The notes beneath the pieces were generated by a model, which had not been told where the DNA came from, did no database searches, and saw nothing but the letters and a program-made list of their open reading frames with translations. Shown here piece after piece: positions 4,363 to 51,227 of a stretch of DNA of 64,000 bases (within the stretch, counting starts at the first letter, position 1; each line of letters begins with the position of its first letter). The position numbers and the translations under genes are program-made. Location: the NCBI GenBank assembly GCA_951406725.2, contig OX597815.1:128278001-128342000 (forward strand), written 5' to 3'. This DNA comes from Octopus vulgaris (lineage: Eukaryota).

Positions 4363-4421
4363 ATGTTAGATCGTTAGCTCCTACACGCATTTTTTTTCTC
4401 TCCTTGTTTTTTTTCTGTGTA

Positions 4422-4460
4422 TCTTTCTGTCGAAGAGCGTAGGCTCGAAATGTAAAAGAC
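4422..4460 (+). ncRNA. Minimal hammerhead-ribozyme-like motif (variant core CUGUCGA), degenerate
   Basis: tcttt-CTGTCGA-a-gagc(gtag)gctc-GAAA-tgta-aaaga. Stems I and II pair; A6 is replaced and stem III looks CpG-decayed. Confidence 0.55.
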
Positions 4461-4557
4461 TTGTTCTATTTCTATTCCTGAGCTCCATACTAATACATTT
4501 GTTTGTTTGTACTCCACCTGCCTTCGATTTTTGTTTATTTTCGTAAACCTTCTCGTT

Positions 4558-4590
<33 letters not shown>

Positions 4591-4639
4591 CATACACACA
4601 CACATTATATATATATTTGTATATGTGTCAGTAGATCGT

Positions 4640-5075
4640 TAAAATTACCATCCGAGTGTGACCGTTACCAGGGACACTGACTGGCTCCTGTGCAGTGGCA
4701 TGTAAAAAACACCATTCAAGCGTGATCATTGCCAATGTTGCCTTACTGGCACATGTGCCGGTGGCATGTGAAAAACAACATTCAGGCCTGGTTGTTGCCA
4801 GTGCTGCTGGTCAAGCTCCTATGCAGGTGGCATGTAAAAACACCTTTTAAGTATGGTCGTTGCCAGTACCATCGGACTGGCCCTCATGCCAGTGGCACAT
4901 AAAAGCACCCACCACACTCTCAGAGTGGTTGGCGTTAGGAAGGGCATCAAGCTGTAGAAACTTTGCCAGATCAGATTGGAGCCTGGTGCAGCCTTCTGGC
5001 TCACCAGTCCTCAGTCAAACCATCCAACCCATTCCAGCATGGACAGCGGATGTTAGACGACGATGACGATGATGA
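4640..5075 (+). mobile_element. RTE 3'-UTR-derived repeat with tandem units and (GAT)n tail
   Basis: Homology to 1-428 and 4030-4362. Confidence 0.8.
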
Positions 5076-5682
5076 TATATAGACACATATATATATATAA
5101 ATTAACACAATAAATATCTGATAGATAATATCTGTTAACATGATTGTGCAGTGGTGGTTGGCGATAATAATTCCCCATTCAAAAAGACCTGTGGTGGGAG
5201 GATAGAACAGTGGTGGTGGGTGATAATAATTTACCATTGTAAATGATCTGTGGTGGAAATATTTAAACTTTTGCAGCTGTCAACGCTTTCTCTCTATAGA
5301 TACAGGCAGACGTACAGAGAGAGAGAGGTAGTGGAAGAGAGACAGAGATGGTGAAGGTAGAGAGGGAAAGAGAGTGGACACTGTCAAACGTCGTTATAGA
5401 GAGAAATTGCAGGAAAGAGAGAGATCAAGGAAGACAGGGTGATATCCGAAAGAGAGAAACGACAAACACTTGTCAAAGTCTGAGTTTTGGTGCCCTAGTA
5501 ACCACAGATTTTGAGATGGAGGTTTCTAACCTAGTCCAGTCACTTCCTTGCCTCATTTTACATGTCCCTGTAAATTTTCACTGCAATCTGATCATGCCTA
5601 AAGCCATTGAACCCTGCATAACTACTAAATGTGACACACAAACATACAACTTTTTGCCATTTCAATTTTGTATATATAGATA

Positions 5683-5775
5683 TACACACACACACACACA
5701 CACACACATACATGCATACATGTATACATACATACATACATACATACATACATACATACATACATACATACATAA

Positions 5776-5806
<31 letters not shown>

Positions 5807-5864
5807 CATACATACATACATACATACATACATACATACATACATACATACATACATACATACA
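5683..5864. repeat. (CA)n/(TACA)n microsatellite
   Basis: Seen directly in the sequence. Confidence 0.97.
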
Positions 5865-6426
5865 TTGTCATTGTCATAATTATGATTTTTTCTTTTTTAC
5901 AGCCATTTTACCATACTGGCAAGAACAAAACTTGTCAAGACAGATATCCTATGGCCAGATACTCATTGTTCCAAGAAATGTATTTTTGTTTCACTGGTCA
6001 TCACATGTTGAAAGCAATAAGGCCATTGCAACTACTGAAATATTACCTTCCAGAAAATTTAAGTAAGGACAATTTTTGATCAGGCAATATTAATGACAAT
6101 ACATTTAGGTGCCTATGTAGTCATAAGCAGACATGGACAACTTCTAGGTTCTCTCTGCTTTCATCCAGCAGAACATCAAAGACAAGACAGATGAAGGGAG
6201 AAAAGGTCTCACCAGCACTAGGCTGGTACTTATTTTCAATTGAATAGACCAAAGCAATGTGAAATGAAATGTCTTGCTTAAGGATACAAATTGCTACCCA
6301 GTCCAGGAATCAAATCCATGACTCATGATCATAAACCCAACAACCTAACCATTATGTAATGTACCTTCATACCAAATGAAAAAAGAAAAAAGTCCCCAGA
6401 AATACCTGTTCCCTGAAATACCTGTA

Positions 6427-6660
6427 AGGCGGTGAGCTGGCAAAATTGTCAGCACGCCAGGTGAATGCTTAATGGTTTTTCATCTACCGCTACGTTCTGA
6501 GTTCAAATTCTGCCGAGGTCAACTTTGCCTTTCATCCTTTCGAGGTCGATTAAATAAGTACTAGTTATGCACTGGGGTCAATATAATCGACTTAATCTGT
6601 TTGTCTGTCCTTATTTGTCCCCACTGTGTGTAGCCCCTTGTGGGCAGTAAAGAAATAAGA
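6427..6660 (+). mobile_element. tRNA-derived SINE, family B (aggcggtgagctggca head, gcctttcatcctttcg core)
   Basis: A/B-box-like head (gagttcaaattc). Related copies at about 23705-23880, 23895-24235, 26360-26582(-), 53950-54120(-), 54150-54300(-) and 61345-61545(-). Confidence 0.8.
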
Positions 6661-6968
6661 AATACCTGTTTCCCAGCCCTAGGATTCATAGAGCCAGTTA
6701 CTCAGTTTCCATGTTGTATAAGCCACCAAGATCACAACATTTTCCCCTGAACATGACACTAGTCTATTGCAGGGCTATCTTTTACAGCTGACTGGACAGA
6801 AGTAACATGAAATGAAGTGTTTTGCTCAAAAACACAACTCACTACCCAGTCAAGGAAATGAAACCATAATCCTGCAATCATGAGTGCAGTGCCCTATCTA
6901 CTTGGTCACATGCCTTCACTTCACATCAGTTACTACTACAGAATTCTATTTACTTTCTTAAATACTTT

Positions 6969-11558: not shown

Positions 11559-12700
11559 CGAGGGGCGTTCAATAAGTAATGCCCCTGACCCACTTCCCAT
11601 AGCAGTAGAGCAACGAAACTTGGCACAGTTATTAGTCTTTTTCTACATAGGAACCACCCAGAGTTACACATTTCTCCCATCGTTTGATGCGGCTCTGGAG
11701 ACCGTTTTTGTAGAAGAACCCAGCTTGGTCCTCCTACCTCAATGTGACTTCAGAAATCAAGGCTGCATCATCTGGGAAACGCTTTCCTTTCAAAAACAAC
11801 TTCATGATTGGGAAGAGGTGAAAATCAGAGGGTGCAAGGTCAGGAAAGTAGGGGGGATGGGGAGGAGTTCATAGCCATACGCCTGTGCTTCTGATCTGGC
11901 GATAAGCGAGTTGTGGACTGGAGCATTGTCCTGCAGGAGGAGGATGCCTTTGCTGATCTTGCCCCGCCTCTTGATTTTGATAACTTCTCTTAATTTCCTC
12001 AAAAGTGAAGCATAATAGGCTTCTGCAATTGTGGTACCCTTTGCCAGGAAATCTGTCATCACTACTCCGTCCTGGTCCCAGAAGACTGTGAGCATGACCT
12101 TGCCAGCGGAGGGCTGCACCCTTGCCTTCTTTGGAGGGGGTGAGTCACGGTGCTTCCACTGCATTGACTGGGCTTTGGTCTCTGGATCATCGTGATGGAC
12201 CCAGGTTTCATCCTGTGTAATCAGTCTTTTGAAAAATTTTGATTCATCTTCTTGGCACATCTCCAAATTCACCCTCGAGCACTCGACGCGTTCTTACTTC
12301 TGGAAAGGCGTGAGAAACCTGGGAATCCATCTGGCAGACACCTTTTGCATATGCAAATGGTCATGAATGATAGTTTCCACAGACCCGGTACTAATCTTGA
12401 CCTCATGGGCTATTTGGCGAATAATTATGCGTCGATCTTCCAAAATGGCAGCCTCAACTTGACGGACAGATGCCTCATCAATGGCAGAAGGGGGTGACCA
12501 GATCTGGGAGCTGTTTCCACAGAGTTCCGACCATGTTTGAATTCACGATGCTAGTGTTTTACAAGGTCATATGATGGGGCATCATCACCATAAGTTACTT
12601 TCATTTCATCAAAAGTCTCCCGTGGTGTGCGTCCTTTCAAATACAAAAACCGGATCACTGCTCGACACTCAACAGGCTCCATTTCACACTTGACTTCAGC
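11559..12700 (-). mobile_element. mariner (DD34D-type) transposon with a frameshifted transposase; only one TIR retained
   Basis: TA followed by TIR cgaggggcgttcaataagtaatgcc at 11557. Transposase runs from ATG at about 12682 (MEPVECRAVIRFL) through WIPRFL, ITQDETWVHH, LLQDNAPVH and PDLAPSDF. Confidence 0.92.
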
Positions 12701-13332: not shown

Positions 13333-13354
13333 TTTATTAAAGCAGAAATATCAC

Positions 13355-13399
13355 AAAAACTGTTACTCAGATTCACGTTCCCGTTCATCAGACAGTTTT
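13355..13399 (-). ncRNA. Minimal hammerhead-like motif with a damaged GAAAC strand
   Basis: Minus strand: aaaactgt-CTGATGA-acg(ggaa)cgt-GAA.tctga-GTA-acagtttt. 8-bp stem I. Confidence 0.6.
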
Positions 13400-13427
13400 G
13401 TTTCGCATTTATGTGCTTATTCCAATA

Positions 13428-14196: not shown

Positions 14197-14213
14197 TATA
14201 TATATCTTGATGC

Positions 14214-14309
14214 TAACATAAGTTCCTTGTTTTTCCTGATGAGAAGGCGGCATAATGCACCCCTTATTCCTTCTTCGAAACATATGTCGAAAATAAAGGA
14301 ATTTTGTTA
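14214..14309 (+). ncRNA. Type-I hammerhead ribozyme with intact core (predicted cleavage after GUC at 14288)
   Basis: Stem I ttccttgtttttc/gaaaataaaggaa; CTGATGA 14236-14242; stem II gaaggcgg/ccttcttc; GAAA 14277-14280; palindromic ACATATGT stem III; GTC. Confidence 0.85.
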
Positions 14310-14509
14310 ATTCGTCGTTCAACTCCATTCTTTCATTTATTTGTATTTAAAAAAACACACAAATTTCCACACGATAGCACGTGATCTTTGCCCTAGGCAT
14401 GTAGCTTCAACCGTGTTTTTGCTGACGTGAATTTGCTACCCAGGTATCGGTTAACCGAATTATCCATAATAAGATAATTCATTCAACTACTCAATTATAT
14501 ATATATAAA

Positions 14510-14738
14510 TAATGAGGGAGATAAATTGAATATTAATTTAATTAATATCAATTTAAAACCAGTAGCCTAGCATACAAAAATCTGAAAAATCAGAGAAAAT
14601 TCTAATACATGTGTATATTTGAAGAGCAAAACCACTAGGTGGTCACCCATATGCTAGAAGTAGATCACCTATGATCGTAGGTGATCTACTTCTAGCATAC
14701 GGCCGACCACCTAGTGGTTTTGCTCTTCAAATATACAT
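14510..14738 (-). repeat. Fold-back element with ~60-bp arms and a family-specific tail (PLE pseudo-LTR-like)
   Basis: tatatttgaagagcaaaaccactaggtggtc...tagatcaccta pairs with taggtgatcta...gctcttcaaatata. The tail 14510-14580 is the reverse-complement homolog of 32815-32890. Confidence 0.8.
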
Positions 14739-14752
14739 ATATATAAATTATG

Positions 14753-15119: not shown

Positions 15120-15634
15120 TATAATTTAATCATGCCAAGGGCCTATAATCCTTTAAGGGGTGTTTACATCCTAGTTCTCCAGTTTATACCAGTGTTCAGC
15201 GAAAACTAAATACTTTAGTTATGCATCAATGTATATTGGTATTTAAAATATTTATGAATGAGAAAAAGAAGAAAATGGAGAAACTGACATATAGACATCA
15301 ATTTATTCAAAGATATTAAAATCAATATAACATGAAATTTTTATCCTTACATCCATTTTCATATCCAATTAATTCAATTAGACACATCTGAGTCTGCCAA
15401 GGGTTGACCAACATAGAATGTAACTTCTTTCTGGAAGTTCTCCCTTGATGAAATAGGCAATTAACAAGTTTTAATACGAAAATTTTAATTTAACTTAATT
15501 TAATTTCATTTCTCTAATTGAATAAATTGGATATGGAAATAGCTGCAGAGATAAGAATTTCATATATTGATTTTAATACCTTTGAATAAACTGATGTCTA
15601 TACATCAAATTTCTCCATTTTCTTCTTTTTGTCA
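15120..15634. repeat. Inverted repeat with ~130-bp arms (15258-15388 / 15508-15634) in a (TA)n-flanked element
   Basis: aaaaagaagaaaatggagaaa pairs with tttctccattttcttcttttt. A second, truncated family member lies at 50320-50520. Confidence 0.75.
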
Positions 15635-16464
15635 TATATATATATATATATTTGCTTCCATCACTAGCTACATATTTTGATGAACTACATCTACAAACAT
15701 TATGATGGATCTCCAAGGCCCACCTCCTCAGAAACATCTGTTGAACTTATAACACCTTACTTCTTCCCCCTTTAATTTTCTCTGATGTTTGTACTCCGTG
15801 TAAGTTTGATCTATTAGTGTATAAATATACTTAAATATTCATCATCTGAAAACCTTCAGTCTTTGTTTTGTGTTTGCATGTATATATATATATATATATA
15901 TATGTATATCAAATATATATATATATATATATATTGTATATCAAACTCAAGCTATTATATTTAATTTGTTTATCCCCATAATTGCCTCTCTCTTTATATA
16001 TTTATGTGTGTGTGTCTTTGTGTTTGTGTTTGTTCCCCACCACTGCTTGACAACTGGTGTTGGTTTATTTATGGCCACTGTAACTTAGCAGCTCAGCAAA
16101 AGACACTGACAGAATAAGTAGTAGGCTTAATAAATAAAAGTACTGGAGTCACTTCATTTAGTTAAAAATTCTTGAAGACAGTGCCCCCAGCATGGCCACA
16201 GTCTAATGACTGAAGCAAGTAAAATATAAAAGATATCATGTTGGCATGGGTTGGATAGTGTAACAAGATCTGACAAGTTGGTGGACTGTAGCATGTTCCA
16301 GTGTCTGCTTTGGTAAGATTTTATACATTTGTTACCTGTCAACTATATTCAGAATTATTCTTAATTTAATTCACTATGAACACTAAGAAAAATAAGCTTA
16401 TGTCATTTGAATGCCACTGAATTTTTAAAATATAAGATTATTTAGAAATATTATTGTAATACTA

Positions 16465-18944: not shown

Positions 18945-21900
18945 TTTTTCTTCTTCTTTCAAATTTGCTTCCATTTCTTGCCGAGTGTCTTCTTGACTCC
19001 TAGGGCAAAGAAACTCATAGTATACATTGGTAGGCCATTAAACTAAACTCAATAGTACGTTAATTTTTTTTTTTTTAAGTTAAATTAAAATACATGGGTA
19101 GTAATAGTTCTCACAGCGACAATGCTCTTCTCAATACGTGTGATGTACCAGTTAAGACAATCTTTTGCACTTCTTGCAGGGATGGTAAGCCAGGGATTAT
19201 TCTCATATAATTTTCGGTTCCCTTCTTGATCATTCCTAGTGCTCCTATGATCACTGGTATTGTAACTGCCTTGAGATGCCACATTTTCTCAATTTCAATG
19301 AGCAGGTCTTTATATTTTCTGAGCTTGTCAAACTCTTTCGCCGAGATATTATGATCACAGGGGATGCTCATGTCGATCAATAAGCAAACTTTATTGTTTT
19401 GGTCTTTCACAACAATATCTGGTTTATTGGCTTTGATGGTTCAGTCTGTATGTACTGGAAAGTCCCACAGAATCGTTACATTTTCTCCTTCAGTTACAGC
19501 TTCAGGGTGGTGATTATACCACTTGTCGGCAGTTTTGATATTGTAATGCCGACTTATTAGCCAGTGGAGATATTGGCCAACTCTGTCATGTCTTAATTTA
19601 TACTCCACTGGTGCTAAGACTTTACATCCAGAGATTAGGTGGTCCACTGTTTCAATCATGTCGTTGCAGAATCGGCATTTTGGGTCTGCTCCATTTTTCA
19701 TCACATTGGCCTGGTAGTTCCGGGTTAATAGGCTTTGATCTTGAGCAGCCAGGATGAAACCTTCGCTCTCTGCTTTTAGCCCTGAGCTCCGTAGCCACTG
19801 ATGGGTTTGCTTCTGGTCAACATCAGCTTGTTTGCTACGGGCCACATATTTGCCATGCAGAGGTTTCTCCTCCCACCTATCAGCCAATTGCTTGTGCGCT
19901 TTTTTCGTTGCCAATATTTTCACCTTCTTTGCAACAATAGTTGCCGTACTTCCCTCGGATTGTTCGGTTTGGATATCCTGCACGAGATCAATAGCAAACT
20001 TTTTGCTTTCCTTTATGATAGAATGAAGCTTCTTTTGTCTCTCGTGATTTTCCACGAGCTTTAGCATCCAGTCATTCGTTATTTCAAGATATTTGGCCAG
20101 TCCAATTGTGGTTGTTTTGTAAGCTAGTTCAAATTGGATCAGGCCTCGACCTCCTTGGGCTCTGATAAGGTAAAGGCGATCTACGTCTGCCTTTGGGTGG
20201 TGCATCCTATTACAACTCAGCAGCTTGCGTATTTTCCTGTCTATATTCTTTACTTCACTCATATTCCAGTTCAACACATTGTAGCTATAAGTAACAACTG
20301 GAACTGCTAAGGAATTTATAGCTAACACCTTGTTACGTGCATTTAGTTCAGATTTCAGGACTGCACGAACTCTCCTATAACATTCCTTCTTGATCTTCTC
20401 TTTCATGCTTGCATGCTGAATACCAGAGCCTTCATTTATCCCTAAATATTTGTATGTTTGTTCTTGCTCAAGCTCTCTTATGACTGTGTCAACATCTAAC
20501 ACGACTGAATTTGTGGTCTTCACTTTCCCGTTCTGGAAAGTGGCCTTGGCACACTTCTCAAGCCCAAACTCCATCCCGATGTCATCGCTGAATGCTTTCA
20601 CAGTGCGCAATAGGCCTTCAAATTCATTATCGTCTTTACCATAGAGTTTTAAGTCATCCATATAAAATAGATGGCTTATTTTTTTATTGGCAATTTTATA
20701 CCCATACCCTGTTCTGTTTAATTCACTTGTAAGGGGTATTAGGGCTATGCAGAATATTAAAGGTGAAAGTGAGTCACCTTGAAAAATTCCACAGTTGATG
20801 TTTATATTTTCTGAGGCAAGTACTCCATTAGAGTGGTATAACTGGAGATTCGTATTCCACAACGACATATTGTGCTTCAGGAAGCTTGAAATCACAGGGG
20901 AAATTTTGAAGATGTCCAGCGATCTCAAGATCCATGGATGCGGTATACTGTCGAAAGCCCTTTTATAGTCAATCCATTAGGGGCTGAGATTTCTGCGCTT
21001 GTTGTGATAGTTCTCAAGGATCATACGATTAATTAGCAGTTGATCTTTGCATCCGTATGAGCCTCAGTGGCACCCTTTTTGTACAATGGGGAAAATATCG
21101 TTCTTCTCCATGAATGCATATGTTTCTCCGCCAGGATAGATGTTAGGATTTTATACGTGGTGGATAGACAGGTTATAGGACGATAGTTTTTTGGAAGGTT
21201 GGTTTCGTTATTTTTTGGGAGTGGGTAAGTAATACCACTTGCTAACCATTCAGGTGTTTTCTTTGGGTCTCTCATAATTCCATTGAGCAGCTGAACTAGC
21301 TTACCATGTGCGCATGGGAGTGATGCGAGCCAGAAATTTGGCACGCTATCTCTACCGGGGGATTTCCAATTATGGGCCTTCGTGAGTGCCTTTCTTAGGT
21401 CTGCTATTGTGATGTCTTTCCATGCTTGTTGTTGTAAATTTTGGTAGGATCCTTCTGTTTGTATAATCCAGTCTGCATTTATGTTGTACGTCTTCTTGTC
21501 ACTCCAAATCCTTTTCCAAAAGTTTTGAACTTCTTCCATGGGAGGGGGGTCTTTAATGGTTACTTTCTCCTTCCCTATTTCTCTGTAGAATTTTTTGGCA
21601 TTGGATGTGAACAGCCTATTTTGCTTGTAAAACTTGTTTCTCTTCTCAAATCTTCGTATTCTTTGGGCTTTTGCTTGGACTTTTTGTTTCAGCGTTTCTT
21701 TTATTGATACCAGTTCTTCTCTTGGTGAGGATCCAAATTTTCTCTTCATCTTTCTTCCTGTTTTAGATCTTACATAATTTCCACATATTAGTTCATTTAA
21801 TATTGATATTTCCCCTCTCATAAATTCAATCTCTTTTTCAATTTTACTTCTCCAGGTTTGATTTCTTCCCAGGTTTGGTTTTCTTTGTTTTTTCGGGGAC

Positions 21901-22010
21901 ATACAGCTGGTTTCAATTGCCCTAGCAGAAGCGTAAATAATTTCATTTAACTCAGTAAAATCAGGTTTTAATTCTTGTATTATTTCATTTGTTACATAGT
22001 TGCCAATTTT
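18945..22010 (-). mobile_element. R4/Dong-clade non-LTR retrotransposon (RT, CCHC, restriction-like endonuclease), 5'-truncated with few frameshifts
   Basis: ORFs 21033-21902, 19441-20928 and 19111-19410 carry KSPGRD, YRPITCL, GIFQGDSLSPL, YMDDLKLY, CRFC..ETVDHLISGC, RHD, KPDIVV..IDMSIP and K..KY. Flanked by (TAA)n. Confidence 0.95.
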
Positions 22011-22011
22011 G

Positions 22012-22097
<86 letters not shown>
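22012..22097. repeat. (ATT)n microsatellite
   Basis: Seen directly in the sequence. Confidence 0.97.
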
Positions 22098-22098
<1 letters not shown>

Positions 22099-23690
22099 TT
22101 ATGTTTGACTTTTGCTTTACATTTTTACAAGTTGGCTTCAAGTCTTAACCAGAGACCTCAAGAGACACAAGTTAGAAGTTTATGTTGGTGTTATGCCTAG
22201 GGTGCCATATATTTGGTTTTGTACGTAGTGTTGTTCAAGAGGATGTTTAAGAAACCATAAGAAAATTATGTGTTTGTTTCAAAATTTGAGATTGCATAGA
22301 AAGTATTTGCGTAGGATATGGGTAGTTCCCATGAACACTATATTTTAAATTTCTACCATTTTGCGGTTTCCTGGTATCTGACCTCAGTAGCAATGAGCCC
22401 CTTTTGCTATCATTCCCAGGGCACCTATGACAACAGGTATTGTTTTAGTCTTCAGGTTCCACATTTTGCTAATTTCTATTTCAAGATCTTTATACTTGTT
22501 CAGTTTTTGGTAGGTCTTGACAGATACATTTATATTGATTGCGACAGTCATATCAATGAGAAGGCATGATTTTTGTCTGAAGTCTTTCAATACGATGTCT
22601 GGCCTATTTGCATCTATCTTTCTGTCAATTTGAATGGTGAAGTTCCAGAGGAGTGAATGTGGTCATTTTCAAGCACTGGAGGTGGTTTGTGTTCCCACCG
22701 GTTTTTATCATGGGGAAAGTCTAGGTTTTTGTAAATTACCCAGTGAATATATTGTGCAGCTCTATCATGCCTGTTGAGATACTCTGTAGGTGCAAGAAGA
22801 CTGCACACGGAGGCAACATGATCAATAGTTCCATTTTGTTGTTGACACACATGACAGATTGGGGAGCTGCCGTTCTTTAATATGTTGACCTGGTAGTTCC
22901 TTGTAGGTAGGCATCGATCTTGAGCTGCTATGATAAATCCTTCTGTTTCAGATTTTAAGCCAGAAGCCTTTAGCCATTGATGGGTAAGGGTTTTGTCGAC
23001 ATTGACATTATTTTCTCTCTTTGGGTATTTGCCATTGAGAGATTTTTCTTGCCATTTATCAGTCAGCATATCTAAGGCAGCAATTTTAGCACGGGTTTTC
23101 ATGCACTTAGCTTTTTCTGTGCTTGTTTCCAGTAGTCTAATTCTGAGATTGTTGTATTTGGAATTCACTTAGATATTCCTTTGCCTGTTTTGTTACTGAG
23201 TATGATGCTTTCTTGTTTTAATGTTTTGAGACAAGTTTTAACATCCAGTCCTCAGAGTTTTTCAGGTAGGTGTCTAGGCCATCTGTGGCAATCTTCATTG
23301 TTATTGCCAGTTGTAAAAGTCCTTGGCCTCCCTCTTTTCTTGGCAGATAAAGTCATTCTATATCTGCCTTATGGTGGTGCATTCTATGCATTGTCAACAG
23401 TTCTTGTATTATTCTGTAAAGATTACATATTTCAGTAATTTACCAGTTAATGATATTGAAACTGTAAGTCACGACTGGTATGGCTAAAGCATTGATCACT
23501 TTGATCCTGTTTCTTGCATTCAGCTCTGTCTTAAGTATTGCTCTCACTTTGCAATAACATTCTCTTCTGATCCTTTCCCTCATCACTGAATGCCTGATTC
23601 CATCCCCTTCTCCGCTGGTATTTGTAGCACTTTTATGACATTCTGCTGATCAAGGTTAGTGTTAGATGTTTCTGTAATTTTTCCGTTATT
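22098..23690 (-). mobile_element. Older R4/Dong-like copy (post-RT region, CCHC, RLE)
   Basis: LKSETEGFIIAAQD, CHVC..IDHVASVC, RHD, RPDIV..IDMTV and IPVVIGALG. Confidence 0.9.
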
Positions 23691-32256: not shown

Positions 32257-32890
32257 TACGTAAATATAAGAGAGTTACTGTTAAGTGGTTAACTCTAGTG
32301 CTAGAAATAGCTCCTTATTCTGGTATAGCCACCGAAGTTGTTTCCACAAAAGAAATAACATTACCTCCAGCATATGGAAAGCGATAAATTTAATATACTG
32401 CACTAAATAGTGTGTGCTGTACTCGTTTCCACTAAGTCTTACCATGCTTTTTGGCGGGGAAGCTAAATCACAATTATGTATGCAATCGATTGGACCGCAT
32501 GGGTATTTATCGCCCGTGTGGGTCTAATAAATTGTATTGAAAACAAATGCTGCTGATGATTTATAGATAAATATGTGAGTATAATTGCATAAAGAAACAA
32601 TTGTTGATAAAGATTATGTTGATAAAGAAACAATTGTTCAGCATTAATTTATCTTTTCGTTGTATTTCGCTTTCCATACGTTGGAGGTAATGTTATTTCT
32701 TTTGTGGAAACAACTTCGGTGGCTATACCAGAATAAGGAGCTATTTCTAGCACTAGAGTTAACCACTTAATGGTAACTCTCTTATATTTACGTATAAATT
32801 TGTATTGTCTCCCTGGTTTTTTATGTGCTAGGCCACTTGGTGTTAAACTGATGGTATTATTAAATTAATATCTAATTTTTCACCCTCATT
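32257..32890 (+). mobile_element. Penelope-like pseudo-LTR relic with an inverted 5' copy (arms 32257-32385 / 32667-32793)
   Basis: Near-perfect ~130-bp inverted repeat with a hammerhead in the spacer. Tail shared with 14510-14580; (TA)n on both sides. Confidence 0.7.
32546..32645 (+). ncRNA. Type-I hammerhead ribozyme motif with intact core and GUU site
   Basis: aatgctg-CTGATGA-tttat...ataaa-GAAA-C-aatt-GTT-cagcatt. Palindromic stem III; internal duplication of ataaagaaacaattgtt. Confidence 0.72.
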
Positions 32891-34404: not shown

Positions 34405-34554
34405 ACAGTTCTATATTTAAGAGATGAGGAATTATGTACATTATTTACCTTATTTACATTTGACGGATATTTGTCCTCATCTTGTTTGTTGTTAAGAGCG
34501 CGGGCTACTAATCTCAAGATTCCGAGTTCAATTCCAGACAGTGACCTGAATAAT

Positions 34555-34592
<38 letters not shown>

Positions 34593-34750
34593 CAACAATA
34601 ACAACATTGAAAAATACCTTAGGAATGAGAACCCAGGTTCGAAATTTCCCCAAGACACCTGACACCTGATGAAGGCTGGAGGGTATATCAGCCAAAACGT
34701 GTTAACAAGAAACAAGATGAGGACAAATATCCGTGAAATGTAAATTATGT
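34405..34750 (+). mobile_element. Fold-back element containing a tRNA-like head, (AAT)n and a degenerate hammerhead
   Basis: IR arms 34451-34495 / 34702-34745; B-box-like gagttcaattcc at about 34524; gacac-CTGATGA-a-ggctg..cagcc-aAAAC-gtgtt at 34661-34703. Confidence 0.65.
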
Positions 34751-35169
34751 AGTATTCTAATGTTCTTCACTCTTTCTGTACTGCTGCTTGTCATCACTTC
34801 TTCTCCCCTGTGCCACTTTTATTGACAATCATACATATCACCTTTTCAACTTGTATTCCCCAATGACTACCCCTCCACTCTTGTTTACCATTCACTACAT
34901 CCACCTTTATTTCTCTGACCATTTCTGACTCTCCTCACACATTCTTGAAACCACTACTTACCTACTCTTCCTATTCTTCTGTCCCTACACTCTCTTCTAT
35001 TCCATCTTCTTCTACCTTGAGGGGACATTCTTACACCTTATCACCAATATCTTTACATTTCTTTCAAATTCTACACCTATTACTCCTCCACACACCTATA
35101 TAACATGAGGTAGCCATGTATCTCTTCTACAGCAATAAACCTATTACTGTCCCTTCTATCATACTTTAA

Positions 35170-37009: not shown

Positions 37010-37600
37010 ATAATAATGAAATTATTGTATACAGTGCTCAGGTGCACCACAATTTGTCAAAAGTGCGTGTAAAGCATATGCAGTAATGTAGAAATGCCTG
37101 GAAAGTGAACAGTGTATGAGTCAGATACATGCCTGCGTGTGTATGGAGGGGAGAAAATTAGGTGTAGTGTTGGCGAATCTCAGGAAGCATGGAAGTTTTG
37201 AAGGATGCAGTGCCCTGACAACTAACAACTGGTGCCTGCAGTTTGTTCCTTGCTTCAGCAACTCTTAGTGTGAAAAAATGTTTCTGAAAGTCATGGGAGC
37301 GGTGCTGTTTTCTGATTTTGTAAACATGTCCACGGGTGTTAGACAGGTGGAGTTTTAAAAAGTGCTCAGAGTTATTGTTTGTAAGATGGTTAATAATTTT
37401 ATGGGTGTCTGATAAGTCAGCCACCAGACATCAGAGTTTCAATGTATCCATGCCCTGGGAAGTAAGGCCTTCACAATATGGCAAAAGCCTGATGGAGGGT
37501 ATTCTCTTGGTTGCACGTCGCTGAACCGTTTCCAGACGATTAATATACTGGGCAAGATAGGGGTTCCAGACTGGTGATGCAAATTCCATAGCTATATAGT
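37010..37600 (-). mobile_element. CR1-type LINE 3' fragment
   Basis: EFASPVWNPY..RLETVQRRATK, NTRGHVYKI..FFTLRVAEARNKL and an (ATT) tail. Confidence 0.88.
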
Positions 37601-38449
37601 TCCTTGAGAGAAATGTTGTACCTAAGAAGCATCAGTTGTGGTGTGCAAGAGAGACGATTGCTCTGGTATGGTCATGTGGCGAGAATGAATGAAGATAGGT
37701 GTGTGAGAAAGTGCCAATCCCTAGCAGTTGAGGGAACCCGTGGAAGAGGTAGACCCAGGAAAACCTGGGACGAGGTGGTGAAGCACGACCTTCGAACGTT
37801 AGGTCTCACCATGGAAATGACTAGAGACCGAGACCTATGGAAGTATGCTGTGCGTGAGAAGACCCTGGCAAGACTAGTGAAGCCATAACCCGTGGCCCCT
37901 ACCTGGGACGTAGTCAGTCCACCTGTGCATACCTTCCTTCTTGTGACACTTGTGAAGACCTGTTGAGGCAAGTGAAAATCAAATCAAATCAAATCAAACC
38001 AAATCAAAATAGATGAACATCAATGGAATTTGTATCCTTGTGGTACCAGTGCCAGTGGCACATAAGAAAACCATCCGAACGGGACTGTAGCCAGTACCGC
38101 ATCGACTGGCCTCCGTGCTGTGGGCACGTAACAAACACCATCTGATCGTGGCCGTTCGCCAGCCTCGTCTGGCACCTGTGTCGGTGGCACATAAGAAAAC
38201 ACCGAAAACACCATCCAAGCGTGGCCGTCTGCCAGCCTCGTCTGGCACCTGTGTCGGTGGCACATAAAATCACCCACTACCCTCTCGGAGTGGTGGGCGT
38301 GAGGAAGGGCATTCAGCTGTAGAAACACTGCCAGATCTGACTGGCCTGGTGCAGCCTTCGGGCTTGCCAGACCCCAGTTGAACCGTCCAACCCATGCTAG
38401 CATGGAAAGCGGACGTTAAACGATGATGATGATGATGATGATGATGATA
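37600..38449 (+). mobile_element. 5'-truncated RTE LINE (ORF2 C-terminus plus full 3' UTR)
   Basis: RRLLWYGHVARM..GRGRPRKTWDEVV, (AAATC)n, tandem units and a (GAT)n tail. CpG-rich, so probably young. Confidence 0.92.
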
Positions 38450-38582
38450 TAAAGTCTCAGATAGATAGCCAGAGAGCTATCTACTTATAAATGTAGAAAT
38501 TCCAGGGTTTAGTGAAATGATTTTGTATAACATAGATAAATTAAGAAATGGAGTTAAACACAAGTGCTATTCAAATCTTTAT

Positions 38583-38810
38583 ACGTAAAAAGCACCATCC
38601 GTCCGTGGCTGTTTGCCAGCCCCGTCTGGCACCTGTGCGGGTGGCATGTAAAAAGCACCCACTACACTCACGGAGTGGTTGGCGTTAGGAAGGGCATCCA
38701 GCTGTAGAAACACTGCCAGATCAGACTGGGCCTGGTGCAGCCTTCTGGCTTCCCAGACCCCAGTTGAACCGTCCAACCCATGGAAAGCGGACGCTAAATG
38801 ATGATGATGA
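38583..38810 (+). mobile_element. RTE 3'-end-derived repeat
   Basis: Near-identical to 190-428. Confidence 0.85.
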
Positions 38811-39008: not shown

Positions 39009-39072
39009 TGGTTAATTGAAGAGATGGCGGCGTGGATTTCCACCTCAGCATCTGAAACTCGGAGTTTTATCA
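39009..39072 (+). ncRNA. Degenerate hammerhead-like motif
   Basis: ggttaa-TTGAAGA-gatg...catc-t-GAAA-ctc-g-gag-TT-ttatca. The C3>U change is uncompensated. Confidence 0.5.
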
Positions 39073-41194: not shown

Positions 41195-41900
41195 TATCAT
41201 CATCATTATCATCATTATCATCGTCATTTAATGTCTGCTTTCCATGCTAGCATGGGTTGGATGGTTTGACTGAGAGCTGGCAAGCCAGAAAGCTGCACCA
41301 GGTTCCAATCTGATCTGGCAAAATTGCTACAGCTGGATACTCTTCCTAATGCCAATCACTCCAAGAATGTAGTGGATGCATTTTATGCGCCACTGGCACA
41401 AGGGCCAGTCACTGCTGTACTGGCATCGACCACGCTTGATTGGTGCTTTTTACATACCGTCGGCGCGAGAGCTGATCAGGCAGCACTGGCTATGACCACA
41501 CTCGAACGGTGCTTTTTACGTGCCAAGGGCACGGGACCAGTCAGGTGGCACTGGCATCAACTACACTTGAATGGTGCTTTCTACATGCCACCAACATGGG
41601 TGCCAATGAGGTGGTACTATCATCAGCCATGACAATGACTTCTCTTGACACAACAGGTCTGCGCAAGCGCAATTTATTTCCCAATGATTGTAGGGTACTC
41701 TTTGATGGGCCAGTTATGCTACACTGGCATAGGTCACAATTAGGTCTCACTTGGCTTGTCAGGTCTTCTCAAGCACAGCATATCTCCAACAGTCTCGGTC
41801 ACTTGTCATCACCACTGTGAGGCCCAATGTTCAAGGGTTGTGCTTCACCACCTCATCCCAGGTCTTCTTGCGTTTACCTCTTCTACAGATTCTCTCTACT
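41195..41900 (-). mobile_element. RTE 3' end including the last codons of ORF2
   Basis: Minus strand encodes RGKRKKTWDEVVKHNP, followed by the UTR units and tail. Confidence 0.82.
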
Positions 41901-42268: not shown

Positions 42269-42360
<92 letters not shown>

Positions 42361-42609
42361 GTCATATACTGTCACATTGAGTTGACAGTATACGACCACT
42401 ATATCGCTTCACCACCGCTTATTTCTCTCTGAGACATTTAGAAATTCAATATTTCTAATATATATATATTGCCTAAGCTACCATGAAATGGAACTGAAGG
42501 CAAAACCACATGGTTGAAAGCAAAATGACCTTCATAAACTTACTGCCATGGTGAATACATACACACACATACATATGTATGTGTGTGTTTTTTTTTTTTT
42601 TTTTTTATG

Positions 42610-42657: not shown

Positions 42658-43119
42658 AAAATAGTAAAGTGTGACAGAATAAATGTTAAAAAATATATAT
42701 ATTTGTGTCAAAATGTCTGGAGAATATTGGAAAAATTTTTTCCTTTCCTTAAAATGACATAATTTTAAAATTTTAAAGAAATTACCGGTTTCGCGTGTAG
42801 CTTTTCAAATTTCTTGTGACAAGAAGAAGAAATTTCTTGTGTCTTTGATGGGCCAGTTATGCTACACTGCATAGGCCACAATTAGGTCTCACTTGGCTTG
42901 TCAGGTCTTCTCAAGCACAGCATATCTCCAACAGTCTTGGTCACTTGTCATCACCACTGGTCACAGAAATTTGAAAAGCTACACGACCGGTAATTTCTTT
43001 AAAAATTTTAAAATTATGTCATTTTAAGGAAAGGAAAAAATTTTCAATATTCTCAGACATTTATGTCGTTTTTATACTATTTTTATATATTCACCCACGT
43101 GCTTTACCAAACAAACTTT

Positions 43120-43169: not shown

Positions 43170-45909
43170 TGTATGTATGTGTATGTACATACATACACAG
43201 ACACACACGTGCATATGTGAGAATGTGTCTGCATGTATGTTAGTGTGTATTTTAAACAGGTGTGTTTATATTGGCTATATTATACAGGTGCTCAAAATTT
43301 TGCTAAGTTTATTATTCACAATGTACATCATTCAAATGTTTGCTGTGCATGTGTGATTACATGCGTGCACAGTGATACTTACATGCATAGTTTCATGTAT
43401 ACACATATACAAATACACACACATATGCATGCATGATATACACATTCTGAACTAGTGGTTTTATCTAGAATATTCTATGACTATAATAATGACGATATAT
43501 ATTTTTTGTTTCTTGTGACAGCTTGTTTTGAAAAACAAATTAGTCATTTACTAATTTAACAAGGTTGTGCATGTTACTGTGTTTCAGGCCTATGAGATAG
43601 AATGGGAAGTAAACTCTCCTCATGCTGAGATTGCTACCAGGTTTCAAACTCAAGTCTAACCCCCAGTTCAGTTCACTCAAAATTTTTAATTCCTTTGAGA
43701 AAAATATGAATGCTATTATTACATCATCTAGTTCCTTCTTTATTGAATTGTAGATGAATGGGTGTGTAAGACATGACTGTCATCTCTCATGCAAATTAAA
43801 GGAAATGACGAATAAAAAGCATTCAATATAATATACTCTGATATGAGAAGATCCTATTTCTTTATAGCAAAGTAGAGAGACCCGCTTTGTTGAATTCCAA
43901 CTAATCTATACAGTGTCCTTCCTATATGTACACAATATGGCCTCACTCTCTCAATCATTGAGCAATAAAGTAAATAAATTCACCCAGACAGGATTTGATA
44001 ACTGTGTTGATAGGCTGGCAGACCACCACCTTATATATTGACAATTCATTTCTTTGTCAGCTTTACTACAGTCTTTGTGTGGCCATAACCCTAATAATAA
44101 ATTAAAGTTAAGAGTTAGAACAACTTATTGCTGTAAATAGATGTAATATTGTAAAACTTTTGAGTGTTTTGTTGTCATCTAATGCTGATTTTAATTTAGA
44201 TTTAAATTTATATTTTGCTTAGAAAGAGGGACAACCTCTGTCAAGCTGATTGTCTCCAGATGCACAACAGAAAAGAAGAAAAGAGAAGTTTCTCATTTAT
44301 GCTTCTTGGACTCCATATGCTAGAGTATTCACAATCATGACAGACAATAAAATGGCAGATTAAATGTTTTGCAGAGTTTTCATTTGTCTGTCCTTATTTC
44401 TTTATTCAGTTCCAGCTGATACTGATATTGTTTTTCATCTCGCAGTACCCAATACTATAATGTTTTAACAGTCAATTTATGATAAGTCTGTATAAACAGA
44501 AATTGTCCATTTAAAAGGGGCAATACAGAAACCATTGCTAGAGTTAACCTGGAAACGTTGATAAAGATGAATTTAGAAACACTATTGTTCCAAACGAACT
44601 ATAAAAGTATATGCAAATACAGAGAACTTTAAGAAAAAAAGGTGAAAAACAAGAACATAATCATTTTTTCCTGATAACCTACTCGAATATTTTTTCGTGT
44701 GCCACTGGCAGAAGTGCCAGTAAAGTGTTGCTGGTAACAATCACACTTGAATGGTGCTTTTTACGTGCCACTGGCACGGAAGCCAGTCAGCTGCTCTGAA
44801 AAGCAAATGAGGTGGTATTTTACAAAAATGGAGACTGACTGGGATCTTGCTCATCAAGTTTCCCAGGAGGATCCAGGAATAGACCAACAAATGATGAATG
44901 CAGCAACATTCTACAACAGCACATGCTTCCACATCTGACCTCATAGTTCCACTGGATCAGGAGTAACTTGGGCTAAACAGCAGCAACAACAACAACAACG
45001 ACAGCAACAACAAACAGCTGTAATATGCAAATAAAAATTTTTCAGTAACCTTTTCGTTTATCATACTAGGGCATAAAATGAATATAAAATTGTAAAAACT
45101 AAAACAAAACATGATTTTTCTTACCTGTCTTTCTTTAATTTTTTTCTTCTTTGTGTGAATTGAGAATTTCAGAACATACTGGAAATCATGTAAAATAACA
45201 TTGAAACATCATTTAAATGAACTTAAATTCACAAATAAATACATTATATGTATGTTGCTTATTCCATTAGAAATCAACAAAAGTTCTTCAAAAGATCACT
45301 TTATGAATAGGGCATCCATCATCACATTTCCCACCATTAAGCAACAAAAGAAATTTTTATATTTTGATTGGAAAATGGTAGCAGCTGTTCATTATTATTA
45401 TTTTTTTCCATTAAACCACAAATATACTCACAACTTCCTCCCCTACCACGAACACACACAAACACAGAGCTGTATGTATACATGTGTATGCACATACATG
45501 CACGTCTTAAGTGGGTTATTTTTTTCCCCCTTTCTTGCCCTTTCTCTTTGGTTTTTGTCTGTCAACAATTTGTTTTAATGCTCACTATGCTACAGGCTCA
45601 TGTTTTACATGACTCTGGAGTGATGAAAAATAAAGTCAACAAAACTAGAAACTGTAATGTATTTTGTCTCCCATTCTTCAGGCTTTTTTTAGTTACCTCC
45701 ATTATCATTTAGCTGGCTTTTCTCATGCTTTTAAGTTAAATTAAGTCATCCCCATAGCATTTCTGCCATTGTAGCAGTATGTTTGTGTGGTTGGGAAGTT
45801 CACTTCATAACCATATGGTTTTGGGTTCAGTTCCATTGCTGGGCATCTTGAACAAGTGTCTCCTACTGTCCTCAAGCCAATCATAGTCATACAAATGGAT
45901 TTTGGTAGG

Positions 45910-46269: not shown

Positions 46270-47520
46270 AGAGAGAGTTTTATTTAAGTTCTTCTTAAAA
46301 GAGTGTTCAAGTCAGTCACTAACAAAGCTACAAGACCTTTTGAGTTAAGAGAGTTCCTGGTGCTTGTAACTCTTAGTTGAGTTGGTGCATTGATTGTGTG
46401 CATCTATTCCCCTAAAGGATCTCAGATGGAGAATCTGTGGAATGTCTTACAAATCTTCAGTGTGCAAATAATAGATTGGGTTTGGAGAATCTGCATCAAT
46501 TTCTTTTGTGCTTTCTTTAAAAAATCCAGTATTTCTAGGTTTTTGTGTAAATTTGTTGGTACATAGCCTAATGCACTTAAAATGATAAGTACATACGGGA
46601 ATTCATAGTCAGGGTATAAGAATTGTAAATTCCACATTAGCTGACCATAAATCTTCTCTTTCTCCTGGATTTTTAATTGTAGATTCACATCCCCTGGGCA
46701 GCTGACCTCTACCACAGTGCATGACTTTTGTTCCCTGTTCCACTGAACAATATCAGGTCTGTTATGCTTGCACTGGATTGCTGTTTTTATTGCAGTTTTC
46801 CACCAGTATTACTTGTTTTTAAAGGTGTGATTACCTGCTGGTTCTGATATGCCTTTGATATAAATATCAGGTGAACCTTTCTGCAGATTGCATTGTAAAT
46901 AGCCTTTGCAATGATATCATGCCTCAGAGGCAGGTAATATATCAGACATTGTGAAGCAGCTGCTGATGTTATGGGTAATATCTTCCACACTGGTATAGCA
47001 AAGCTGACATTTTTTTTATCACAATGTGGAAGTTTGGTAGTATCTTTGTCCTTCTTGTTTATCAGGTATTTAATATCTATCTCCTGATCCTGGACAGAGA
47101 AGAGATATCCTTCTAGTTGGGATATAATGTATCTATCACAGAACCAGGAGAGGCCACTCTTCCTGTCAATGCTATTGTTGCCCTCTAATTTATAGGACAT
47201 GAACCCATGCATTGCTTTTTGTCAGTATGATGCCTGCTCTCAAAGATTCTGTTTGGGTTGCATGAGACAGTTGTATTGTCAGAGCCTGCACAGTAGTTCC
47301 AACAAACATACAAGGATGTGTTAAATACATCTTTGGGATGTAATTAACACAAACAAATTCATATTTGGAACTAGTGAAAAGTCTTGCATATTTTTACTAT
47401 TCCACTTACAGATTGCACTTGTAATGTACGAATTAACCAGTCGATTTCTCTCTGAAAATCCTAGTTTATCCAGATTCTCCTTTATGGATTTACTAACAAA
47501 ACCTAGTACTCCAATTATTA
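46270..47520 (-). mobile_element. Decayed R4/NeSL-like RLE retrotransposon 3' part
   Basis: EGYLFSVQDQEI, YYLPLRHD, KHNRPDIV..VEVSCP..EKEKIY and IILSALGYV. Confidence 0.85.
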
Positions 47521-47859: not shown

Positions 47860-48630
47860 AAGTCATTATTCAATTTTATTTCAAGATTTCTTGCCAACAG
47901 AGAAAGAGCCAGTTTTGGTTTCCGTGCCAGTGGCATGTAAAAAACACCATCTCATTGTTGTCAATGCCAGCTCCTCTGGCTCCTGTGCCAGTGGCACGTA
48001 AAAAGCACCCAGTACACTCTCAGAGTGGTTGGCGTTAGGAAGGGCATCTAGCTGTAGAAACACTGCCAGATCAGATTGGGGCCTGGTACAGCCTCCTGGC
48101 TTCCCAGACCCCAGTCAAACCATCCAACCCATGCCAGCATGAAAAACGGACAGTAAACGATGATGATGATGATGATGATCCAAAGCTCCTTCATTGGAAT
48201 TTCAACATCAAGAACAGGGTATTTTTGTATGTATGTATGTATACATGCAGATTTGTATGTTTTGTTTTATGTATGTCTTCTCATGTATATACTTGCATAT
48301 CGAGATATGCTCATATATACTTAAATGATAAACTTCTGAAAAGTTTTACAGATTTTTACAGTTCCAGTGATGGCTTGAACCTGTAGTTTTTGAATCAGCT
48401 TTCTCCTTTCTGGTTTGGAGAAATTAGGTTTCTCAAAAATGGATATTTAGGTTACATATTCCAGTGCCCCAATGACTACAGGTATAAACCTAAACTTGTA
48501 ATCTGGATAGAGTAACTGTAAATTTCTCAATAGTTCAGCATAGGTGTTCTCATTTTCACTGAGCTTCAACTTTATTTTAACATCCACTGGGCAGCTGATT
48601 TCTACAACTGTACACAGTTTCTTTTCTTCT
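47860..48630 (-). mobile_element. R4-like RLE element 3' end with (TACA)n-associated UTR, split by an RTE-tail insertion (about 47920-48178, +)
   Basis: Minus strand encodes CTVVEISCPVDV..IPVVIGAL..KICKTFQKFII*. The UTR is uninterrupted in the copy at 49680-49800. Confidence 0.8.
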
Positions 48631-49561
48631 GTCTGTCTGTCTGCATATATGTATGCATGTATACATGAAAATATGTATTTATGTATGTGTGTATGTAAGT
48701 GTGCATGTGTGTGTGTCTCCTATCTACAAATCAACCAGATATTTCATGTCTTTAAGCTGTGAAAAAATATGCAATGCCTTACTTGAAAAACAGGTAAGGT
48801 TTTGTGTCAGAAAGGGCAGCCAGCTGTAACTCTATATCAAACGATATGTTTGTCTGGGTAAAGCATACATAGAAAAGGCAGATGTAGAATGAGCAAATAA
48901 ATAGACAAACATTTAGTTCCATATTTTATTGATTCTATCAAACTTACAACAATAATAGTAACTTCATCAATTACATTGATTTTGAACAGTAACGTAAGTT
49001 CATACTTTGACAGCTGAGCATAGTAAGTAAAATCAATTCTAGTATCTAACTGGTATTTATTTTATTGATCCCAATAGGACAAAGAGATAAAAGACAAAAT
49101 TGTCTTCAACAGGATTTGAAATCACAATTCAGAGTTATTCGAATAACATGAAAAAGAGTTTCTCATGATTATAGATATGATTTATTAGAGAGTGGAAGGA
49201 AATTACATGACTCTCTTTTTTTGCTTAGAAGATTGTCTATAAAAGGTGGGTTTTTTTTCTTTAATTGTCTATTGTACACCTGGGATATTTTCATAAAGTT
49301 CATGATGATGATGATGATCATATACACTTTCCCATCATTTTTCCATGCTGGCATGGTTGGACAGAGTTTATTGAAGCAGATTTTCTATGGCCAGATGCCT
49401 TTCTGCTGGCAATTTCCATCTGCTTTTGAGTAAAGTAATATCTCTCTATACCCAGACTTGTTTTTGCAGAATATTGGAAATAAGTGACACTGCTTGCAAG
49501 ACAGTGACACTCAGTTACAACAATTACAATGTTAAGACAAGGAAACACCAATATACACTCT

Positions 49562-49607
<46 letters not shown>

Positions 49608-49862
49608 TACATACATACATACATATGTACATACATACATACATACATACATACATACATACATACATACACACATACAAGCAAACAAACAAAAATCCCC
49701 TGCTGTTGACGTTGAAATTCCAATGAAGGAGCCTTGGATTTGGGTTAGAAACTGGTCCTTTCTCCATTGGGAAGAAATCTTGAAATAAACTGAATAATGA
49801 CATACATACATACAAACATATATATGTGTGTGTGTGTGTGTATACACACACACACACACATA

Positions 49863-50082
49863 TATGAAGAGGTGCTGAAAATTTGGTGGCTTTAAGGGTA
49901 TTGCAAAAGGCCTGGTTGGAAGTTCAATCTTCCAAGTTCTTTTACAGGGCTTAGAAAAACTGAAGGACTACTGTAATAAGTATGTGAATCTGAGAAGAGA
50001 ATATATTCAATAAAATTACAATTAACTGATCCTCTTGTATTTTCTTTTACTCAAAGCTAAAAACTTTCAGCATCTCCTTGTA
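49863..50082 (+). mobile_element. mariner-derived MITE retaining the transposase C-terminus
   Basis: TIRs gaggtgctgaaaatt / aactttcagcatctc, TA ends, and GLEKLKDYCNKYVNLRREYIQ*. Confidence 0.7.
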
Positions 50083-50195
50083 TACACACACACACACACA
50101 CATATATATACTGTGATTTAGCCCCAGGAAAACATCTTTTCCAGTTAGCTACCTGTAAGGGAGGTCATCACTCTCATCTCTAGCCTTATGTGATA

Positions 50196-50240
50196 CTCAC
50201 AGACCTAGGTTTCTGAGTAGTTATCTGTCCTCAGTGTGAG
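50196..50240 (-). ncRNA. Minimal type-I hammerhead (GUC site) with eroded stem II
   Basis: Minus strand: ctcaca-CTGAGGA-cagataactactca-GAAA-c-ctag-GTC-tgtgag. Confidence 0.7.
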
Positions 50241-50582
50241 GCAATCACTAGCTAATGATAGGACTGCCACATTATGTTGGCAAATAAACTTTACTATATA
50301 TATATTATATATATATATAATTGTATGAAGGACCTATAATCCTTTGAAGGATGCTAGCATCCTAGTTCTCTGGTTTATACCAGTGTTAAGTGAAAACCGC
50401 ATATATTAGTTTTGCATGGGTATATATAGGCATTTAAAACATTAATGAATGAGAAAAGGAAGAAAATGGAGAAATTGACATGCAGATATCAGTTTATTCA
50501 AAGATACTCAAATCTTCTATAGATTCAGGCTGACCAAAGCCTTGTGAGTGGATTTGGTAGACAGAAACTGAAAGAATCCCAT

Positions 50583-50615
<33 letters not shown>

Positions 50616-50773
50616 GTGTGTATATACATTTACGTGTGTATCTTTCTGTCTGTGGTTGCCCCCCCCACTAGAATAAGTACTTGGCTTACAAAGAATAAGT
50701 CCTGGGGTTGATTTGTTTGACTAAAGGTGGTGCTCCAGTATGGCCTTCTCCATTTTTAATATATATATATATA

Positions 50774-51040
50774 TATAATCAAAATAAGCAACAAGGATAT
50801 CCACAGGTAATGCAGTATGATCGTTTCATGCAACTCCATTTAATTGAACAATGCAAACATTACATCAATTTAAAATACAGAGCAATGAAGATTACATTAC
50901 ATCAATTTAAAATGCAGAGCAATCTTCATTGCTCTGCTTTTTGAATTGATGTAATGTTTGCATTGTTCAATTAAATGGGGTCGCATGAAACAATTGTGCT
51001 GCATTACCTCTGGATATCCTTGTTGCTTATTTTGATTATA
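50774..51040. repeat. Fold-back with ~120-bp arms (50774-50893 / 50921-51040)
   Basis: Direct complementarity; the 27-nt spacer duplicates part of the left arm. Confidence 0.85.
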
Positions 51041-51129
51041 ATTACCTCATTTTGAATTATATGGATAATACCATACTAAATTCTGGTGCTTTTAAGTACC
51101 ATATTCATCTGAATCTAAATTTTACTGAA

Positions 51130-51227
<98 letters not shown>

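What the first reader, a model, noticed from the sequence alone, without database searches (positions are those of the whole stretch)
4363..51130. A dense, unannotated population of minimal hammerhead ribozymes in (TA)n-associated fold-back elements
Seen: nine type-I hammerhead motifs at 4422+, 13355-, 14214+, 32546+, 34661+, 39009+, 42776-, 42964+ and 50196-. They represent eight unrelated flanking-sequence families, since the two at 42.8 kb are one inverted pair. Most have a 1-2-bp stem III capped by a palindrome (ACATATGT, ACAATTGT, ACCGGT, ACCTAGGT). They occur in 200-650-bp non-coding units mostly bordered by (TA)n, several with an inverted partial copy of themselves. Established: Penelope-like elements (PLEs) carry such minimal, dimer-cleaving hammerheads in pseudo-LTRs and form inverted 5' structures. 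Inference: this genome hosts a diverse radiation of microsatellite-targeting PLE or retrozyme-like non-autonomous elements, and may supply many self-cleaving and dsRNA-forming RNAs. No intact PLE ORF is present in the window.
Basis: partly seen in the sequence, partly recalled or inferred. Interest (0 to 1): 0.82.

Follow-up and report, generated by a model that had tools for sequence, protein, structure and literature searches.

The report
Penelope-type hammerhead relics in octopus DNA
This stretch of octopus DNA holds several short repeats with self-cutting-RNA (hammerhead) motifs, two complete and most others damaged, that are likely the leftover ends or short parasites of Penelope-type jumping genes, a pattern already known in other animals.

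Summary
The window is octopus DNA (PDI exon 98% identical to Octopus bimaculoides). The hammerhead signal is real but smaller than claimed. Two of nine motifs pass a strict descriptor (14236+, 42808-; 0 hits in 300 shuffles). Four have an exact core, palindromic stem III and stem I (0.09 expected). Four more carry core lesions, and 39016+ is unsupported. Seven of nine lie within 350 nt of (TA)n against a 28% background, and 3 of 8 loci have an inverted partial copy. The best unit (14206-14495) is a high-copy family: 533-3551 contigs in three larger runs. No variant is listed across its hammerhead, other copies carry a longer stem II, and some show inverted truncated joins. This matches the published minimal hammerheads of Penelope-like elements, which occur mostly as single truncated copies in many animals, molluscs included. 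No link to an RT/GIY-YIG ORF, no tandem form and no cleavage could be shown. The idea of many self-cleaving RNAs is weak, because most copies are damaged and single. Verdict: new member of a known kind, not found reported for octopus, possibly at unusually high density.

The parts
14206..14495 (+). Best unit: 290-nt non-coding element between (TA)n tracts; member of a high-copy family; this copy lacks about 20 nt of stem-loop II at 14272/14273 and a second piece near 14467
14214..14309 (+). Complete type I hammerhead: extended stem I, core at 14236-14242, 4-bp G-C-closed stem II, second box 14277-14280, 8-nt palindromic stem III segment, predicted cut after C14288 (GUC)
   Evidence: no listed variant at 14206-14310 in four runs
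42776..42815 (-). Complete minimal hammerhead with U3-A8 core, 7-bp stem I, 2-bp stem II, 6-nt palindrome, predicted cut after 42783 (GUA)
42965..42998 (+). Inverted sister copy of 42808-; GAA of the second box deleted, so not a ribozyme
   Evidence: 111 nt at 92% identity, 42711-42820 vs 42960-43062
42842..42959 (.). Unrelated repeat inserted between the inverted pair (97% to 41699-41817; 78% to 37808-37880)
50196..50240 (-). Exact core, 6-bp stem I, 8-nt palindrome, predicted cut after 50202 (GUC); stem II does not pair
32546..32645 (+). Exact core, 7-bp stem I, 8-nt palindrome (GUU site); A-U-only stem II; internal duplication of the second box and palindrome
32259..32792 (.). Fold-back unit next to (TA)13: arm 32259-32384 is an inverted copy of 32667-32792 (97%)
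13354..13400 (-). Damaged motif: exact first box, 8-9-bp stem I, 3-bp A-U-closed stem II, A15.1 replaced by U; AATAAA and (TA)18 follow
4422..4459 (+). Damaged or variant minimal motif: A6 is U, extra A after 9, 4-bp G-C-closed stem II, 5-bp stem I; unit 4363-4557 ends in (TA)n
34661..34701 (+). Damaged minimal motif: exact first box, extra A, 5-bp G-C-closed stem II, G12 is A, stem I 3' arm lost
34446..34751 (.). Unit around 34666: inverted copy 34446-34495 of 34702-34751 (92%), B-box-like decamer 34526-34535, (AAT)n 34549-34601
   Evidence: ARAGORN and Rfam find no tRNA
39009..39072 (+). Doubtful motif: U3/G8 first box, extra base before second box, no clean stem I
   Evidence: not recovered
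54579..62351 (+). Context: first two matched exons of a protein disulfide-isomerase gene (54579-54815, 62157-62351); all nine motifs lie upstream of it

Best explanation
These short repeats carry type I hammerhead motifs, two complete and most others damaged, and are likely the 3' pseudo-LTR ends of Penelope-like retroelements (PLEs) or short non-coding elements that borrow PLE enzymes. Shown: the motifs, their excess over chance, the (TA)n neighbourhood, inverted partial copies, and the high copy number and hammerhead conservation of one family. Inferred from PLE literature: an RT + GIY-YIG enzyme encoded elsewhere nicks (TA)n, reverse-transcribes the RNA from its 3' end, stops early and often adds an inverted truncated copy, which leaves 200-650-nt units with one hammerhead. 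Inferred from anatomy: the 1-2-bp stem III cannot hold a monomer, so two motifs would pair through the palindrome and cut each other in tandem or multimeric transcripts of active source copies. The dispersed single copies seen here are mostly dead on arrival and decay.
For: Strict descriptor 2 vs 0 in 300 shuffles; exact core + palindrome + stem I 4 vs 0.087. U3-A8 core, extra base after 9, G10.1-C11.1, palindromic 15.2-16.2, U-rich upstream, opposite-strand pairs 100-700 bp apart and mostly single motifs are all described for PLE motifs (PMC4209133). Inverted 5'-truncated copy and (TA)n bias are PLE traits (PMC8557442); seen here at 3 of 8 loci and 7 of 9 motifs. Family 14206-14495: 20 of 24 listed runs, 10 studies, 4 organism labels hold it; 3551, 1986, 533 and 211 contigs laid; 4 of 6 listed joints change strand, 3 of them at 14206; 0 of 105 positions in 14206-14310 vary at 5% or more vs 19 of 185 elsewhere (p=2.5e-4, or 0 of 37 vs 19 of 145, p=0.015, on positions I judged well covered). 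Loose ends show a longer stem II in other copies, pairing 11 of 12 with 14243-14254 by eye, with one-sided G-U variants. Palindromes self-pair at -7.0 to -11.4 kcal/mol while monomer hammerhead folds lie 5-18 kcal/mol above the MFE for 14236, 42808, 50234 and 13391. O. vulgaris has 31 recently active Penelope-like families (PMC13282606).
Against: No PLE protein remnant in the window (300 of 397 ORFs scanned) and no contig links the tested family to an ORF (223 loose ends and 6285 pieces were not shown). Only 1 of 8 units was tested as a family. The last 40 nt (14456-14495) also show no variant, so detection is weaker near stretch ends and near this copy's deletions, which inflates the apparent conservation. 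Each strand-change joint rests on one contig. No two-sided compensatory change was seen. (TA)6+ tracts are common (45 in the window) and fold-backs without any hammerhead also occur. My scoring scan also ranked a TA artefact (14126) and a likely chance match (6705-) among its top six.
Confidence: 0.68

Rival explanations
1. The units are solo monomers of non-LTR retrozymes: tandem arrays elsewhere give circular RNAs by hammerhead cleavage and ligation, and these are reverse-transcribed and dispersed. This overlaps the best reading, since retrozymes are proposed to derive from PLE pseudo-LTRs, but it needs tandem arrays and circles.
For: Unit size of about 300 nt and low GC fit the 150-450-bp monomers of PMC7229834. 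Dispersed monomers are common in Xenopus (bioRxiv 2026.07.22.740005). Three joints at 14206 hint at a fixed start, as for a discrete unit. 14236+ has a long stem I with an internal loop.
Against: No tandem hammerhead unit in the window. None of the 6 listed joints goes back head-to-tail, although contigs show presence, not absence, and a (TA)n spacer could hide the join. Inverted truncated partners point to target-primed insertion.
Confidence: 0.2
2. The units are SINE-like passengers of a microsatellite-associated LINE (Dong/R4-type or RTE), with the hammerhead trimming the transcript, as in the Schistosoma hammerhead SINEs.
For: RT-bearing LINE remnants lie in the window (RVT_1 at 19444-20976 and 2663-3058; clade labels recalled from motifs). 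Dong-R4 has the most recently active LINE insertions in O. vulgaris. The 34.5-kb unit has a B-box-like decamer and (AAT)n before its motif.
Against: No hammerhead unit matches the LINE remnants of the window. The inverted-copy structure and motif type are PLE traits. ARAGORN and Rfam see no tRNA at 34.5 kb.
Confidence: 0.07
3. The weaker motifs (39016+, 4427+, perhaps 34666+ and 13391-) are chance look-alikes in AT-rich repeats, and only four or five are real.
For: One-mismatch tier at background, 2 vs 2.16. A motif scoring as well as 13391- and 50234- at 6705- overlaps an 11-nt direct repeat flanking another insertion; a half-motif hit lies in a PDI exon.
Against: 4427+ and 34666+ show the extra base after 9, a G-C-closed 4-5-bp stem II and the shortest stem III type, which my descriptor did not ask for together; 34666+ has an inverted 3' copy. 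This rival cannot cover 14236+, 42808-, 32553+, 50234-.
Confidence: 0.3

Closest known systems
Minimal type I hammerheads in pseudo-LTRs of metazoan Penelope-like elements (Cervera & de la Pena 2014, PMC4209133; read parts 1-2 of 4 and supplement 2 part 2 of 3)
   Same: Type I topology, 1-2-bp palindromic stem III, U3-A8 variant, extra base after 9, many unrelated families per genome, mostly single motifs, opposite-strand pairs; molluscs Lottia and Crassostrea are in its alignment
   Different: No ORF link shown here; 14236+ has a much longer stem I (5 + 7 bp and more) than the 4-5 bp typical there; no octopus in the supplement files searched (2 files; file 1 could not be searched)
EN+ PLE insertion structure (Craig et al. 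2021, PMC8557442; passages only)
   Same: 5' truncation, adjacent inverted truncated copy, (TA)n preference, hammerhead near the 3' end in canonical clades
   Different: Clade (Neptune, Poseidon, Hydra, Nematis) cannot be assigned without the ORF; Naiads lack canonical hammerheads
Non-LTR retrozymes (PMC7229834, passages; bioRxiv 2026.07.22.740005, parts 1-3 of 5)
   Same: About 300-nt non-coding unit with a type I hammerhead, dispersed monomers, proposed PLE origin
   Different: Defined by tandem units and circular RNA; neither seen here
Hammerhead variants with diminished stem III that cleave as dimers (Lunse, Weinberg & Breaker, RNA Biol, PMC5785218; title seen in a reference list, text not held)
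   Same: By title: small PLE-associated variants cleaving as dimers
   Different: I could not check whether octopus sequences are among them
Schistosoma SINE-like elements with promoter plus hammerhead (passage in PMC6765202)
   Same: The 34.5-kb unit has a B-box-like decamer upstream of its motif
   Different: No tRNA detected by tools; inverted 3' copy points to PLE-type insertion

Membership tests
PLE pseudo-LTR minimal hammerhead | Type I core (CUGANGA or U3-A8, GAAA, UH) with stems I and II | tested here: met
   Met by 2 of 9 in full, 4 of 9 without the stem II demand; not met by the other five
PLE pseudo-LTR minimal hammerhead | 1-2-bp stem III with palindromic segment | tested here: met
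   6 of 9 by sequence; self-duplex energies for three
PLE pseudo-LTR minimal hammerhead | G10.1-C11.1 pair and extra base between 9 and 10.1 | tested here: inconclusive
   G-C in 4 of 9 (14236, 42808, 4427, 34666); extra base in 2 of these
PLE pseudo-LTR minimal hammerhead | Family-wide conservation or covariation of the motif | tested here: met
   One family only: no listed variant in 14206-14310, longer stem II in other copies, one-sided changes only; coverage caveats
Penelope-like element | Terminal repeat flanks an RT + GIY-YIG ORF in autonomous copies | tested here: inconclusive
   No such ORF in the window; no genome held; contigs too short to link
Penelope-like element | Adjacent inverted 5'-truncated copy | tested here: met
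   3 of 8 loci; 4 of 6 joints in the tested family change strand
Penelope-like element | Insertion bias to (TA)n | tested here: met
   7 of 9 within 350 nt vs 27.8%
PLE pseudo-LTR minimal hammerhead | Cleavage as dimer, little or none as monomer | not testable with these tools
   Only fold energies; all listed runs are contigs
Non-LTR retrozyme | Two or more tandem units each with a hammerhead | tested here: not met
   None in the window; no head-to-tail joint among 6 listed (absence not proven)
Non-LTR retrozyme | Monomer of 150-450 nt | tested here: met
   290 nt here, about 330 with the missing pieces
Non-LTR retrozyme | Expressed as circular RNA | not testable with these tools
   No raw RNA reads offered
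Non-LTR retrozyme | Loop 1-loop 2 tertiary contact of canonical type I motifs | not tested
   Needs a family alignment, which I do not hold
Rfam hammerhead families | Score against the covariance models | tested here: not met
   No hammerhead hit

The most novel reading that the evidence does not exclude
Octopus genomes carry one of the densest hammerhead populations in animals, on the order of 100,000 complete motifs, in many short non-coding families moved by PLE enzymes. The 14.2-kb family is a discrete ~330-nt element with a fixed 5' start about 80 nt before the cut and a ribozyme kept by selection although its copies stand singly in (TA)n, so that cleavage would happen in trans between transcripts of separate copies; the 34.5-kb family adds a tRNA-derived promoter, and the 4.4-kb family may use an A6-to-U core.
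Probability: 0.2. Interest if true: 0.55.

Novelty: new member of a known kind. Interest (0 to 1): 0.3.

Why it matters
If the reading holds, it labels part of the unclassified short repeats of octopus (893 of 900 recently active SINE families in O. vulgaris are 'unclassified') as PLE-dependent and gives a simple motif for finding them. A young, high-copy family with a complete ribozyme is good material for the open question of what PLE hammerheads do. The biology of the motif itself is not new.

Tried and rejected
No genome is held for this window, so no genome-wide scan or family alignment. Exact patterns from the 34.6-kb, 4.4-kb and 14.2-kb units found nothing in metagenome, viral (30, 55) or prokaryote (54) contigs. 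Rfam gave only microsatellite-driven miRNA and other weak hits. No RNA holder listed; run X9 is a guessed RNA run and is not used as expression evidence. All runs are contigs, so no ends at the predicted cut could be looked for (table 6 empty). Summed contig depth is not used as a copy number. A tenth candidate at 6705- was rejected: its stem III and stem I arm coincide with an 11-nt direct repeat (6659-6669, 6415-6425) flanking a different repeat. 14126+ was rejected as a (TA)n artefact. Fold-backs at 14.6, 15.2, 50.8 and 60.3 kb have no credible core. The first PDI search, on short proteins, did not name the organism. Earlier findings of the scan had nothing by place or by sequence and nothing with both 'hammerhead' and 'octopus'. 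Literature: searches hammerhead+Penelope+octopus (4 listed), ribozyme+cephalopod (36, 25 of 30 listed), hammerhead+Octopus bimaculoides (45), Penelope+octopus+SINE (37), retrozyme+mollusc (67) showed no report on octopus hammerheads; the main text of the O. vulgaris repeat paper has 0 hits for ribozyme or hammerhead (its supplement not read); the giant squid paper lists 235 Rfam hammerhead-1 hits. Lunse et al. is not held, and supplements of the bioRxiv preprint and of PMC8557442 were not seen; repeat libraries may already class these families as Penelope.
Full report
Source and setting. The window is AT-rich, microsatellite-rich animal DNA. An exon at 62157-62351 is 98% identical to protein disulfide-isomerase 2 of Octopus bimaculoides and 92% to Argonauta hians; a second exon maps at 54579-54815. 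So this is an octopus; the species is not fixed. All nine motifs lie upstream of that gene, among LINE remnants, a mariner fragment and many short repeats. No genome is held.

Noticed in passing
window 34496-34601: A B-box-like decamer (34526-34535) and (AAT)n sit between the inverted copy and the hammerhead motif, suggesting a truncated tRNA-derived head on a PLE-type unit; ARAGORN and Rfam find no tRNA. The inverted copy starts one base after the predicted position 17.
   Followed up: partly
window 4427-4433: First box has U at position 6 in an otherwise tidy minimal motif; could be decay or a family-wide core variant.
   Followed up: no
window 60269-60976: 708-nt fold-back (90% over the whole, 215-nt arms at 97%) inside the PDI intron, not near (TA)n, no hammerhead core, no ORF.
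   Followed up: partly
window 14605-14744, 15248-15645, 50777-51037, 42358-42399: Further fold-backs beside (TA)n without a hammerhead; 15137-15323 matches 50328-50514 at 82%, and 14511-14580 matches 32818-32890 at 81%.
   Followed up: partly
window 19114-22124 (-), 22387-23168 (-), 46425-47221 (-), 48450-48719 (-): LINE with RT, zinc finger and restriction-like endonuclease motifs, in a few long frames between (TAA)n/(ATT)n tracts, plus older fragments; Dong/R4-type by recalled motifs.
   Followed up: no
window 1116-3800 (+), 37592-37885 (+): Broken LINE with RT and a PHD finger; RTE-like label recalled.
   Followed up: no
window 11805-12293 (-): Mariner-type transposase fragment (PF01359).
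   Followed up: no
window 41-260, 4043-4362, 4684-5078, 31368-31709, 38123-38782, 41205-41590, 47921-48176: Abundant repeat family with 62-67-nt internal tandem units ending in (GAT)n.
   Followed up: no
window 6399-6669: A repeat of about 240 nt flanked by an 11-nt direct repeat, with a third copy of the 11-mer; it creates a false hammerhead at 6705-.
   Followed up: yes
window 44960-45208 (-): Weak, below-cutoff Pfam match to XK-related proteins (E=0.0016); possibly an exon or chance.
   Followed up: no
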